Source: a virus (lineage: Duplodnaviria > Heunggongvirae > Uroviricota > Caudoviricetes). From it: a DNA stretch of 12,783 nucleotides. The DNA is taken from IMG/VR virus record IMGVR_UViG_2636415418_000003. One strand, given 5' to 3'. Numbering within the stretch: the stretch's first letter is position 1; every line of letters begins with the position of its first letter. The notes beneath the pieces are model-generated. The model was not told the DNA's origin and searched no databases. It saw nothing but the letters and a program-made list of their open reading frames with translations. Below, one piece after another: positions 1,979-3,141 of the stretch. Position numbers and translations under genes: made by a program.

Positions 1979-2680
1979 ATGGTTCCTTCAACTTCCCTAT
2001 ATAAATATCACCCCTTAAATCTATATTCTTTAAGTGCTTTAACTAATTGTAGCTTATGGTTTTCTGGATTTGATAGACTAAATGATCCTTTTGAAAGTAC
2101 CTATGAGTTTTCTCCGGAAATGATTTTTTCTTATTCAGAAAAAGTTCGTGCAGCAGAAGATACCATTATGGCAATAGTAAAATCATCGGGTGTATGCAGC
2201 TTTACACGCATTCCACCTATAGGTGCAGATCAATTTAGGGAAAGCTCCCTAATGTGGTCTCACTATGCTGCGCAATTTTCTGGAGTGTGCATAGAGTTTG
2301 ATTATGACATATTGATAGAATCATTAAAAAAACAGCCTGAAGTTGATCTTATTTGTCAAAATGTGATTTATACACCATATGCGCATAAAGTAAATAAACC
2401 TAATGAAGCATATGAGCTAGACGTTATGTTTAAAAAACATAAGGCATGGAGTTATGAAAAGGAGTTTAGAATTGTGAATACAAAGACAGGTAACGACAGG
2501 CTACATACATACTCCAGCAATGCTATAAAATCAATTTATATAGGTGGGAGAATGAGCCGCGAGGAAATTAAACTCATTAAGGTAATTAGGAATTCCATCA
2601 ATGATAAAATTAATCTTTTGCATGTCGATGTAAGTAATCAGGGATATCTCTTCGAATTACGGGATTTAGATTTTGATTAA
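1979..2680 (+). CDS. DUF2971-family protein (233 aa)
   Basis: N-terminal pattern SLYKYHPLNLYSLSALTNCSLWFSGFDRLNDPFES matches the LYKY...FS...NDPFE signature I associate with DUF2971; clean ORF; followed by a hairpin terminator. Confidence 0.7.
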   Translation: MVPSTSLYKYHPLNLYSLSALTNCSLWFSGFDRLNDPFESTYEFSPEMIFSYSEKVRAAEDTIMAIVKSSGVCSFTRIPPIGADQFRESSLMWSHYAAQFSGVCIEFDYDILIESLKKQPEVDLICQNVIYTPYAHKVNKPNEAYELDVMFKKHKAWSYEKEFRIVNTKTGNDRLHTYSSNAIKSIYIGGRMSREEIKLIKVIRNSINDKINLLHVDVSNQGYLFELRDLDFD

Positions 2681-2700
2681 ATTAATATCATTAATATGTG

Positions 2701-2739
2701 ATGAGAGGAGAATACTCTCCTCTCATATTATTATTAATG
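2701..2739 (+). terminator. Hairpin plus A/T-rich tail shared by convergent genes; likely terminator of the DUF2971 gene
   Basis: 11-bp stem (2701-2711 pairs with 2716-2726, gagaggaga / tctcctctc core) with 4-nt loop, followed by tattattattaat; lies between the stop at 2680 and the minus-strand stop at 2741. Confidence 0.4.
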
Positions 2740-2740
2740 C

Positions 2741-3007
2741 TTAGATTGCCTGTTTGTAAGAATCATTCACACCGTCACGATACCCTTCAGCGAATGCAGC
2801 CTGCGGGCTTTTATGACGCACAGTCCCTGCCTGACTATCAGGAAGAGCCGCCAAATCAACCCAAGGTTGCCCTGTACGAGCTAGACCAGCGCGGTAGCCC
2901 TGATCGTAAGCGCAGCCACAACATTTGTGGCGGCCCTCACCACCTTGATCGTGAGGTAAGTTGATGAAAATAGAGTTATAACGGTGCGATTTTTTGCAAA
3001 TTGGCAT
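2741..3007 (-). CDS. Small Cys-containing hypothetical protein (88 aa from ATG at 3007; 95 aa if started at 3028)
   Basis: Minus-strand ORF convergent on the 2701-2726 hairpin; the internal ATG at 3007 has SD aagga with ~8-nt spacing; protein has a KCCGC motif and GYRxG repeats; the overlapping plus-strand ORF 2698-2964 starts inside the terminator hairpin and reads as antisense. Confidence 0.35.
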   Translation of the reverse strand: MPICKKSHRYNSIFINLPHDQGGEGRHKCCGCAYDQGYRAGLARTGQPWVDLAALPDSQAGTVRHKSPQAAFAEGYRDGVNDSYKQAI

Positions 3008-3141
3008 GTATTTGTCCTTTATCAACATTAACTTCAGGGTTTACACGACCAACCAAGCCAGGCACAATCAAACTGTCAGGAATGATGACGAGGCTAACAA
3101 TTGTTATGAGTCTGCAAACTCATGGCGGTCATGCTTCAGAG

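What the first reader, a model, noticed from the sequence alone, without database searches (positions are those of the whole stretch)
1979..3028. Convergent pair (DUF2971 protein and Cys-rich small protein) as cargo between the att core and the recombinase
Cargo between an att site and its recombinase is a classic place for accessory or defence genes in enterobacterial islands. DUF2971 has no established function to my knowledge, and the partner ORF has an unusual KCCGC motif. The two share a bidirectional terminator.
Basis: inference. Interest (0 to 1): 0.4.

Follow-up and report, generated by a model that had tools for sequence, protein, structure and literature searches.

The report
Candidate antiphage enzyme on phage satellite
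Two unrelated accessory genes share the swappable cargo slot of a small tRNA-integrating, capsid-encoding mobile element: one is an ADP-ribosyltransferase-fold protein of a family already listed as a candidate antiphage defence, the other a small orphan protein found at accessory positions in many prophages, so the finding is real but mostly ordinary.

Summary
ORF A (1979-2680) is a DUF2971 protein and matches PADLOC candidate PDC-S31 (E 1e-36). Its AlphaFold model (pLDDT 92.7) is closest to DarT and Tpt1, and it keeps the family's invariant ExE motif. DUF2971 is no longer a blank: it has been classed computationally as an ADP-ribosyltransferase, and one member, the lactococcal protein Aristaios, is a validated single-gene abortive-infection defence.

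ORF B (most likely 2741-3007, 88 aa) belongs to phrog_3941. It is a tandem repeat with conserved Cys/His residues and has no Pfam model and no structural match. It occurs alone in more than 100 prophage and satellite loci. Its repeat also occurs fused to NOV_C and HNH nucleases, DndB/DpdB-like and WYL domains.

The two genes are not a conserved pair. They co-occur only in one Klebsiella cassette, a 1.47-kb block that is 99.5% identical between two diverged elements. They also differ in GC content (about 33% against 51%). At least five other gene sets occupy the same slot in related elements, and none matches a known defence family.

Verdict: a new member of a known kind, of moderate to low interest. 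ORF B is the less understood gene.

The parts
1132..1175 (+). att core: the last 44 nt of tRNA-Thr(CGU) (thrW), without the 5' half of the tRNA. It marks the junction between an upstream island (window 1-1131) and this element.
   Evidence: No tRNA is found in the window. There is one exact match and none in shuffles. The sequence is identical to the 3' part of the full tRNA-Thr that abuts the same element in Raoultella L014.
1730..1879 (+). Conserved 49-aa basic ORF (S49). It forms the left, conserved border of the cargo slot. Function unknown.
   Evidence: It is 77-100% identical in L003, L007-L013, L014 and L163-L181, whatever the cargo. It has no family match.
1832..3297 (.). Recently exchanged cargo block: the 3' end of S49, DUF2971, the hairpin, ORF B and about 290 bp upstream of ORF B.
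   Evidence: There are 8 mismatches (99.5% identity) to the tRNA-Leu element L007 across this block. The flanks are 78-91% identical.
1979..2680 (+). ORF A: 233-aa DUF2971 / PDC-S31 protein with an ADP-ribosyltransferase fold. It is a short form of the family (sample median 290 aa). GC is about 31-35%.
2701..2726 (.). GC-rich 11-bp-stem hairpin in the 60-bp convergent spacer. It is a likely intrinsic terminator for ORF A and possibly also for ORF B.
2741..3007 (-). ORF B: 88-aa protein of phrog_3941 (the 95-aa ORF runs to 3028). It consists of two tandem repeats of about 40 aa, LPxxQxGxxRHK[CS]xx[CA]A[YF]xxGY. C4/H8/C29/C32 are conserved as putative metal ligands. GC is about 50-52%.
   Evidence: phrog_3941 E 1.9e-28. 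121 homologues, and 533 representatives at E<=1e-3. AlphaFold pLDDT 92.3.
3524..4090 (-). Short (185-188 aa) tyrosine recombinase consisting of the catalytic domain only. It forms the right, conserved border of the cargo slot.
   Evidence: Pfam Phage_integrase E 6.5e-21. R42, H137, R140 and Y172 are conserved in A6.
4884..12783 (+). Backbone of the host element. It includes a 140-aa phrog_1244 protein, a 494-aa DEAD-like helicase (6518-8002), a Phage_cap_E-type major capsid protein (10069-11109) and a Q/K-rich coiled-coil ORF that runs off the window end from 11479.

Best explanation
The interval lies in the exchangeable accessory slot of a small tRNA-integrating, capsid-encoding, satellite-like element. 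A conserved 49-aa ORF and a short tyrosine recombinase flank the slot. It holds two independent single-gene accessory genes (morons).

**ORF A.** This is an NAD+-dependent ADP-ribosyltransferase of the DUF2971 / PDC-S31 family. Its nearest structural relatives act on nucleic acids (DarT, Tpt1). I infer that it is a single-protein, abortive-infection-type antiphage effector. On this reading, phage infection activates it and it ADP-ribosylates a nucleic acid or a component of gene expression, which blocks phage gene expression. Its experimentally active relative Aristaios interferes with phage transcription.

**ORF B.** This is a separate small protein with conserved Cys/His residues that could bind a metal. 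It is the stand-alone form of a repeat module that elsewhere sits next to nuclease and DNA-modification-associated domains. Its role is unknown, probably nucleic-acid binding in some phage-host or phage-phage conflict. It is not the partner of ORF A.

**Shown:** family membership, fold, conserved motifs, the variable slot, cassette exchange, and lack of co-occurrence.
**Inferred:** enzymatic activity, substrate, activation by phage, and any protective effect.
For: **ORF A: family and fold**
- The model is confident.
- The ExE motif (E160, E162) and Y96 are invariant in 93 sequences. This fits the family description in PMC12522546.

**ORF A: link to defence**
- PDC systems were derived from genes embedded in BREX, DISARM and type I restriction-modification loci.
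- Aristaios is a DUF2971 protein that is active alone, gives an abortive-infection-like phenotype and affects phage transcription.

**ORF A: neighbourhoods of relatives**
- A lambdoid prophage next to its integrase.
- Directly downstream of an integrase in a small element.
- A prophage moron position.
- A Vibrio integron cassette array, beside a DUF4238 gene in one locus. A DUF4238 protein was active against phages in PMC9122126.
- Next to a putAbiC gene in an integrative element.
- 482 plasmids.

**The slot**
- At least five other cargo sets sit between the same or related borders.
- The cassette is 99.5% identical between elements whose flanks are 78-91% identical.

**ORF B is independent**
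- It occurs without a detectable DUF2971 relative in satellites, in Serratia prophages and in 51 IMG/VR loci.
- It sits between cI and N in a P22-like phage.
- It is the only annotated gene between the partition gene and the portal gene in a P2-like phage. The region between gpA and gpQ is a published antiviral hotspot.
- Its repeat is fused to NOV_C (18 of the 42 longest hits scanned), HNH, DndB/DpdB-like and WYL domains. Those proteins match PADLOC PDC-S36, PD-T4-1, TmtA and DpdB; for the one protein shown in detail, the match lies in its nuclease domain.
Against: - No experiment exists on this protein or on any enterobacterial DUF2971. PDC-S31 is explicitly an untested candidate.
- Aristaios shares only the Pfam family. 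I could not obtain its sequence to measure the distance.
- The other cargo alleles of this slot match no PADLOC family. The slot cannot be called a defence hotspot from known systems.
- ORF A lacks most of the helical insert typical of the family (233 aa against a median of 290). It has His at position 11, where the sample mostly has Arg or Glu.
- One strain carries an IS insertion in the gene, so it is dispensable.
- No mechanism that restrains a potentially toxic ADP-ribosyltransferase is visible.
- In Klebsiella the two genes are always adjacent, so a functional link is not formally excluded.
Confidence: 0.55

Rival explanations
1. The two genes form one two-component system. ORF B would be either the antidote that restrains a toxic ADP-ribosyltransferase, as DarG does for DarT, or a trans-acting nucleic-acid sensor that activates it.
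For: - The genes are adjacent in every Klebsiella copy, across two element backbones and two tRNA sites.
- They moved together in the 1.47-kb exchanged block.
- ADP-ribosyltransferase toxins such as DarT have cognate antidotes.
- The ORF B repeat is found next to effector domains in fusion proteins, which is where a sensor or targeting module would be expected.
Against: - The co-occurrence traces to a single cassette lineage, so it counts as one event.
- The DUF2971 relatives at 53% and 40% identity have no ORF B.
- No DUF2971 relative was detected in about 70 other ORF B loci.
- In phage 520873 ORF B is the only annotated gene between the partition and portal genes.
- The genes are transcribed convergently.
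- GC content differs (33% against 51%).
- ORF B has no macrodomain or other hydrolase fold.
- PDC-S31 and Aristaios are single-gene systems.
Confidence: 0.12
2. ORF A works for the mobile element rather than the host. It would be a counter-defence or helper-manipulating ADP-ribosyltransferase that modifies a host defence protein or a helper-phage component. AcrIF11 is an ADP-ribosyltransferase that acts as an anti-CRISPR (this last point is from my own knowledge).
For: - The gene is carried on a satellite-like element and on prophages.
- In L182 a DUF2971 gene lies two genes from an AcrIF11_ADP_ribosyl-family gene in the same prophage accessory region.
- The enzymatic fold alone does not say which side it serves.
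Against: - The only tested family member protects the host.
- PDC candidates were defined by being embedded inside BREX, DISARM and restriction-modification loci.
- The nearest structural relatives are DarT and Tpt1, not protein-targeting anti-CRISPR enzymes.
Confidence: 0.12
3. The cassette is selectively neutral hitch-hiking DNA, or it serves a host-directed role such as a secreted effector, as predicted for about 18% of DUF2971 proteins.
For: - An IS-disrupted copy exists.
- The other slot alleles have no recognisable function.
- PMC12522546 predicts some DUF2971 proteins to be effectors.
Against: - All family-invariant residues are intact.
- A protein 99% identical (cluster P0001) was seen on 630 contigs, and it is 100% identical in the loci recovered.
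- The surrounding genes are those of a mobile element, not of a secretion system.
- ORF B is about 60% identical between Enterobacterales and Bacteroidota, which argues for strong constraint.
Confidence: 0.08

Closest known systems
Aristaios (lactococcal plasmid pUCCL641, 316 aa; PMC11381338, PMC13064643)
   Same: It has a DUF2971 domain and an ADP-ribosyltransferase-like predicted fold. It is a single gene carried on a mobile element.
   Different: It comes from a Gram-positive plasmid and is about 80 aa longer. Direct sequence identity is unknown because I did not have its sequence. Its antiphage and transcription-blocking phenotype has been shown; nothing has been tested for the window protein.
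PADLOC PDC-S31 (an untested single-gene phage defence candidate; bioRxiv 10.1101/2024.01.29.577857)
   Same: ORF A matches five PDC-S31 models; the best has E 1.2e-36. It is a single gene with no conserved partner.
   Different: PDC candidates were defined from genes embedded in BREX, DISARM or type I restriction-modification loci. Here the gene sits in the att-integrase slot of a satellite-like element.
DarT of DarTG; also CmdT of CmdTAC (PMC11618068)
   Different: Sequence identity is only 6-14%, and the profile finds no PDB sequence match. No macrodomain antitoxin or chaperone gene is adjacent. The substrate is unknown. CmdT itself was not compared.
Antiviral hotspots of P2-like phages and P4-like satellites (PMC9122126)
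   Same: A variable cargo locus bounded by conserved genes of a mobile element, with cassette exchange between relatives. An ORF B homologue sits next to the portal gene of a P2-like phage, in the gpA-gpQ region described as a hotspot.
   Different: The element family and the slot differ (att-integrase rather than cos-proximal). Apart from PDC-S31, none of the slot alleles I sampled matches a known defence family.
Proteins with an N-terminal ORF B-like repeat and a C-terminal NOV_C/DUF3883 PD-(D/E)XK nuclease domain (these match PADLOC PDC-S36, PD-T4-1 and TmtA; shown for P0354 to be through the nuclease domain)
   Same: ORF B shares the LPxSQxGxGRHKCxxCAYxxG repeat with their N-terminal halves.
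   Different: ORF B has no catalytic domain. Its second repeat has lost the Cys pair. ORF B itself matches no PADLOC model.

Membership tests
Pfam PF11185 DUF2971 | HMM score above the gathering threshold | tested here: met
   48 bits against a cut-off of 22, E 3.3e-12.
Pfam PF11185 DUF2971 | Family-invariant residues: NDP, MW-HY, Y131, K153, and W-x-Y-E-x-E-x-R | tested here: met
   All are present in ORF A and invariant in 93 aligned relatives.
PADLOC PDC-S31 | Match to the PDC-S31 protein models | tested here: met
   Five models match; the best has E 1.2e-36 and 124.9 bits.
PADLOC PDC-S31 | Single-gene system with no obligate partner | tested here: met
   The closest relatives have different neighbours and lack ORF B.
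PADLOC PDC-S31 | Demonstrated antiphage activity | not testable with these tools
   The source paper describes the PDC systems as 145 untested candidates.
ADP-ribosyltransferase superfamily (DarT/Tpt1-like) | ADP-ribosyltransferase core fold | tested here: met
ADP-ribosyltransferase superfamily (DarT/Tpt1-like) | Catalytic motif III (ExE or E) | tested here: met
   E160-K-E162 lies at the start of strand 162-167 and is invariant.
ADP-ribosyltransferase superfamily (DarT/Tpt1-like) | Motif I His or Arg that binds NAD+ | tested here: inconclusive
   Position 11 on strand 1 is His here. In the sample it is Arg in 47, Glu in 31 and His in 2 of 93 sequences. No residue-level superposition on DarT was available.
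DarTG-type toxin-antitoxin | Adjacent macrodomain (DarG-like) antitoxin gene | tested here: not met
   The neighbours are S49 and ORF B. Neither has a Pfam or fold match to a macrodomain.
Aristaios | Direct sequence relatedness to pUCCL641_199 | not testable with these tools
   Only the shared Pfam family is documented. No Lactococcus plasmid appeared among the listed hits.
Conserved two-gene system (DUF2971 + ORF B) | Co-occurrence of the two families in independent lineages | tested here: not met
   They co-occur only in one Klebsiella cassette lineage. They are absent from each other's other loci as far as tblastn can detect.
Ribosome modulation factor (considered for ORF B) | Score above the family threshold, or a shared fold | tested here: not met
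Defence hotspot of a mobile element (P2/P4 type) | A locus bounded by conserved genes with many alternative gene sets | tested here: met
   Six cargo sets lie between the S49/att end and the integrase. Cassette exchange is shown.
Defence hotspot of a mobile element (P2/P4 type) | Alternative alleles include known defence systems | tested here: not met
   Fifteen cargo and neighbouring proteins from other alleles have no meaningful PADLOC match; one has sub-significant Cas8b hits, best E 3e-4.

The most novel reading that the evidence does not exclude
ORF B may be the stand-alone form of a so far undescribed tandem Cys/His repeat module (LPxSQxGxxRHKCxxCAYxxG). No Pfam model covers it, and no PDB or BFVD fold matches it.

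Elsewhere the module sits next to PD-(D/E)XK (NOV_C) and HNH nuclease domains, DndB/DpdB-like domains and WYL domains. That placement is what one would expect of a DNA-reading or sensing domain in restriction-like defence proteins.

On prophages and satellites the free module could act in one of two ways:
- as a decoy or shield against nucleases that use the same reader, which would make it a new kind of anti-restriction protein;
- as a trans-acting sensor for a neighbouring effector such as the DUF2971 enzyme.
Probability: 0.2. Interest if true: 0.65.

Novelty: new member of a known kind. Interest (0 to 1): 0.35.

Why it matters
If ORF A is active, it would be the first enterobacterial example of the DUF2971 / PDC-S31 class. 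It is short (233 aa) and common in clinical Klebsiella. A protein 99% identical was seen on 630 contigs. That makes it a convenient model for asking how a single-protein ADP-ribosyltransferase senses phage without an antitoxin, and what it modifies.

The locus also shows that this little-known family of capsid-encoding, tRNA-integrating elements swaps cargo cassettes through a slot bounded by conserved flanking genes. That is relevant to phage therapy against Klebsiella.

ORF B is the more open question. It is highly conserved, found on many mobile elements, and has no assigned function. Its fusion partners point to DNA-targeting conflict systems.

Tried and rejected
- **RMF-like ORF B:** rejected. 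Both HMM hits are below threshold. There is no PDB profile match and no fold match.
- **ORF B as a conserved partner of DUF2971:** rejected by cross-searching all fetched loci. A convergent 88-aa gene after a Stutzerimonas DUF2971 gene looked like the same architecture but is unrelated in sequence.
- **Widening the element family with the integrase:** the genome-contig scan with a single protein returned only 2 loci. The IMG/VR scan with an integrase alignment returned only distant phage integrases, at most 37% identical. The slot survey therefore rests on about ten loci from E. coli, Klebsiella and Raoultella.
- **Known defence genes in other slot alleles:** none found.
- **Aristaios sequence:** I searched the plasmid collection twice and saw no Lactococcus plasmid among the listed hits.
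- **Cassette-bounding repeats:** only short matches of the kind expected by chance.
- **Rfam:** no RNA family anywhere in the window.
- **Promoters:** the consensus scan finds no promoter directly upstream of either gene.
- **afdb50 fold library:** unavailable.
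Full report
**1.

The window has a 233-aa ORF at 1979..2680 (+) and a 95-aa ORF at 2741..3028 (-). They converge on a 60-bp spacer. The spacer holds an 11-bp-stem hairpin at 2701-2726. It folds at -23.5 and -22.9 kcal/mol on the two strands, with z about -6.3 and -6.5 against shuffles. Only the + strand has a T-tract that passes the scan. A shared bidirectional terminator is therefore plausible but not proven.

Upstream, 1132-1175 is identical to the last 44 nt of tRNA-Thr(CGU). The window contains no whole tRNA. Downstream, 3524..4090 (-) encodes a 188-aa tyrosine recombinase made of the catalytic domain only. ORF B most likely starts at the ATG at 3007, giving 88 aa. An AAGGA lies 7 nt upstream of it, and nearly all homologues start at that Met.

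**2. The host element**

Beyond the recombinase the window encodes:
- a DEAD-like helicase (6518-8002);
- several orphan proteins;
- a Phage_cap_E-type major capsid protein (10069-11109);
- a Q/K-rich coiled-coil ORF that runs off the end.

In Raoultella planticola the same layout abuts an intact thrW: tRNA-Thr, a 49-aa ORF (S49), cargo, integrase, helicase, capsid. There the integrase is 91% and the helicase 84% identical to the window's. The window's partial tRNA is therefore an att repeat between two islands inserted in tandem at thrW.

Assemblies that encode the identical integrase or S49 protein carry other islands on that side of the element. These include an EcoRII-type restriction-modification pair, a SMODS/SLATT island and a CbtA/CbeA island. 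In some assemblies the element instead lies directly next to proBA.

I could not assign the element to a described satellite family. IMG/VR holds no close relative of its integrase.

**3. The slot is variable and exchanges cassettes**

| Loci | Cargo between the S49/att end and the integrase |
|---|---|
| Window and many Klebsiella assemblies | DUF2971 + ORF B |
| L175 (S49 protein identical to the window's) | 165 aa + 66 aa |
| Raoultella L014 | 64 aa + 69 aa |
| E. coli L001 | 108 aa + 86 aa + ORF B |
| E. coli L002 | 108 aa + 91 aa + 304 aa |
| E. coli L003 | 126 aa + YecR lipoprotein + 136 aa |
| Klebsiella L016-L021 | 262 aa + 75 aa + 152 aa + ORF B |

I compared the window with K. pneumoniae elements that are inserted at tRNA-Leu(CAA) and carry a different replication module. 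Positions 1832-3297 differ at 8 sites (99.5% identity). The flanks are 78-91% identical. The cargo block was therefore exchanged recently between diverged elements, presumably by recombination in the conserved flanks.

None of 15 cargo and neighbouring proteins from the other alleles has a meaningful PADLOC match. The slot is a diversity hotspot, but it cannot be called a defence hotspot from known systems alone.

**4. ORF A**

*Family.* ORF A is a clear DUF2971 protein (48 bits against a cut-off of 22). It matches five PADLOC PDC-S31 models, the best at E 1.2e-36, and phrog_1762. A profile search found 2,556 relatives at E<=1e-8.

*Conserved residues.* The following are invariant in 93 aligned relatives: N35-D36-P37, M92, W93, H95, Y96, Y131, K153, W157, Y159, E160, E162 and R164.

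*Literature.*
- PMC12522546 classes DUF2971 as an ADP-ribosyltransferase with a conserved Tyr and an ExE motif, related to DarT and AbiGi.
- PMC11381338 and PMC13064643 show that Aristaios, a DUF2971 protein on a lactococcal plasmid, is a single-gene abortive-infection-like system that interferes with phage transcription.
- The PDC systems come from a 'guilt-by-embedding' screen of genes nested inside known defence loci, and they are untested.

*Size and composition.* ORF A is short for the family (233 aa against a median of 290). It lacks most of the helical insert after strand 2. Its GC content of 31-35% is well below that of its neighbours.

**5. Where DUF2971 relatives sit**

- A protein 99% identical was seen on 630 contigs and is named as Klebsiella pneumoniae. 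In every locus I recovered it lies in this cassette.
- The 53% relative lies at the integrase-proximal end of a lambdoid prophage.
- The 40% relative lies directly downstream of a 320-aa integrase in a small element.
- More distant relatives sit in a prophage moron position and in a Vibrio integron cassette array, beside a DUF4238 gene in one locus. They also sit next to a putAbiC gene in an integrative element, on 482 plasmids and in phage SSU5.

None of the neighbourhoods I examined is a housekeeping context. One strain has an IS element inside the gene.

**6. ORF B**

*Family.* ORF B matches phrog_3941 (E 1.9e-28). It has 121 close homologues of 83-91 aa in Enterobacterales, Vibrio, Pseudoalteromonas and even Bacteroidota. 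These are about 60% identical across that range.

*Repeat structure.* Read directly from the sequence, ORF B is two tandem repeats. Segments INLPHDQGGEGRHKCCGCAYDQGYRAGL and AALPDSQAGTVRHKSPQAAFAEGYRDGV share 12 of 28 positions. C4, H8, C29 and C32 (88-aa numbering) are conserved. Their spacing would suit a metal site, which is an inference.

*Positions in mobile elements.*
- The rexAB-like position between cI and N of a P22-like phage.
- Between the partition and portal genes of a P2-like phage, where it is the only annotated gene. The gpA-gpQ region is a published antiviral hotspot.
- Between Q and the lysis genes of a Providencia phage.
- Next to a 410-aa integrase at the end of Serratia prophages.
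- 51 IMG/VR loci, of which 24 of 48 lie within 3 kb of a contig end (15 expected).

Its neighbours there include repressors, antiterminators, methyltransferases, integrases and O-antigen-modifying genes.

*Fusions.* A profile search of 1.84 billion representative proteins found 533 relatives. About 40 of the best 150 are longer proteins. I scanned the 42 longest hits:
- 18 carry a C-terminal NOV_C/DUF3883 domain. This is a PD-(D/E)XK catalytic domain found in modification-dependent restriction enzymes.
- 3 carry a DndB/DpdB-like domain.
- 3 carry an HNH domain.
- 1 carries a WYL domain.

These proteins match PADLOC PDC-S36, PD-T4-1, TmtA, DpdB and HNH models. For P0354, the one protein shown in detail, the match lies in its nuclease domain. 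ORF B is thus the free form of a module that otherwise sits beside DNA-targeting effector domains. That suggests nucleic-acid binding in a conflict setting, but it does not fix a function.

**7. The two genes are not a pair**

- No DUF2971 relative was detected by tblastn in any of the roughly 70 other ORF B loci.
- No ORF B was found near the other DUF2971 genes.
- All co-occurrences belong to one cassette lineage.
- Their GC content differs by about 18 points.
- They are transcribed convergently. ORF B lies on the integrase strand, 516 bp downstream of the integrase gene.

I put the two-component reading at about 0.12.

**8. Mechanism, with its status**

*Shown:* fold, motifs, family membership, mobile-element context, cassette exchange.

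*Inferred:* ORF A uses NAD+ to ADP-ribosylate a nucleic acid or a component of gene expression after phage infection, and so halts phage gene expression at the cost of the cell. This follows DarT, CmdT and the transcription phenotype of Aristaios.

*Unknown:* the trigger, the substrate, and how the enzyme is kept harmless before infection.

**9. Verdict**

The cargo interpretation is supported for the slot and for DUF2971, but not for the idea of a pair. ORF A is a new member of a known candidate class. ORF B is an uncharacterised family with a suggestive set of fusion partners. Overall interest is moderate to low (0.35).

Noticed in passing
window 3524-4090; L002, L007-L013, L014: Short (185-188 aa) tyrosine recombinases that are 91-95% identical to each other sit in elements inserted at three different tRNA genes. 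These are tRNA-Thr(CGU) (window, L014), tRNA-Leu(CAA) (L007-L013) and tRNA-Gly(CCC) (L002). The 140-225 bp next to the tRNA differs between the Thr and Leu elements. How a nearly identical, catalytic-domain-only recombinase uses three targets is unexplained.
   Followed up: partly
window 4091-12783; L007, L014, L163: The host element does not fit any satellite family I could name. It has a short integrase, a helicase or HTH_36 replication module, a Phage_cap_E-type capsid and a large coiled-coil protein, and otherwise only orphan genes. IMG/VR holds no integrase closer than 37% identity, and only 3 of the listed E. coli complete-genome hits carry a close copy.
   Followed up: partly
L163-L173 (the S49 side of the element); window 1-1131: thrW carries tandem islands that differ between strains. 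Upstream of this element, sibling assemblies hold an EcoRII-type restriction-modification pair. Others hold a SMODS + SLATT_4 island with a pP_pnuc gene, or a P4-type integrase with a CbtA/CbeA toxin-antitoxin pair. Others again hold a GIY-YIG protein or nothing (proBA directly). The window has a Bflower-family protein (365-796, -) in this position.
   Followed up: no
L174 and L176, 7186-7737: In two elements with the same S49 protein and the 165-aa + 65-aa cargo, a 183-aa serine recombinase (Resolvase + HTH_7) occupies the position where the tyrosine recombinase normally sits.
   Followed up: no
L180, 6250-8016: An IS element (DDE_Tnp_1 transposase) splits the DUF2971 gene into 34-aa and 205-aa parts in one assembly. 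ORF B and the integrase stay intact.
   Followed up: partly
window 4091-4883: A 790-bp non-coding, AT-rich stretch (27-38% GC) lies between the integrase and the first backbone gene. It contains several promoter-like sites. It could hold a control region or a replication origin, but I did not examine it.
   Followed up: no
window 3301-3500; L001: The spacer between the integrase and ORF B is a mosaic. Positions 3301-3500 are 99-100% identical to an E. coli element (L001) whose ORF B region is only 70-95% identical. Positions 3008-3297 are near-identical to the Klebsiella tRNA-Leu element instead. This suggests a recombination breakpoint near 3300.
   Followed up: partly
L182, 9901-10362: A Klebsiella prophage carries a 313-aa DUF2971 gene two genes away from an AcrIF11_ADP_ribosyl-family gene in the same accessory region. 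That is two ADP-ribosyltransferase-type genes of possibly opposite roles side by side.
   Followed up: no
window 1730-1744 and 3385-3399: A 15-nt inverted repeat (93% complementary) brackets the cargo region, with one arm at the S49 start codon. It is probably a chance match.
   Followed up: no
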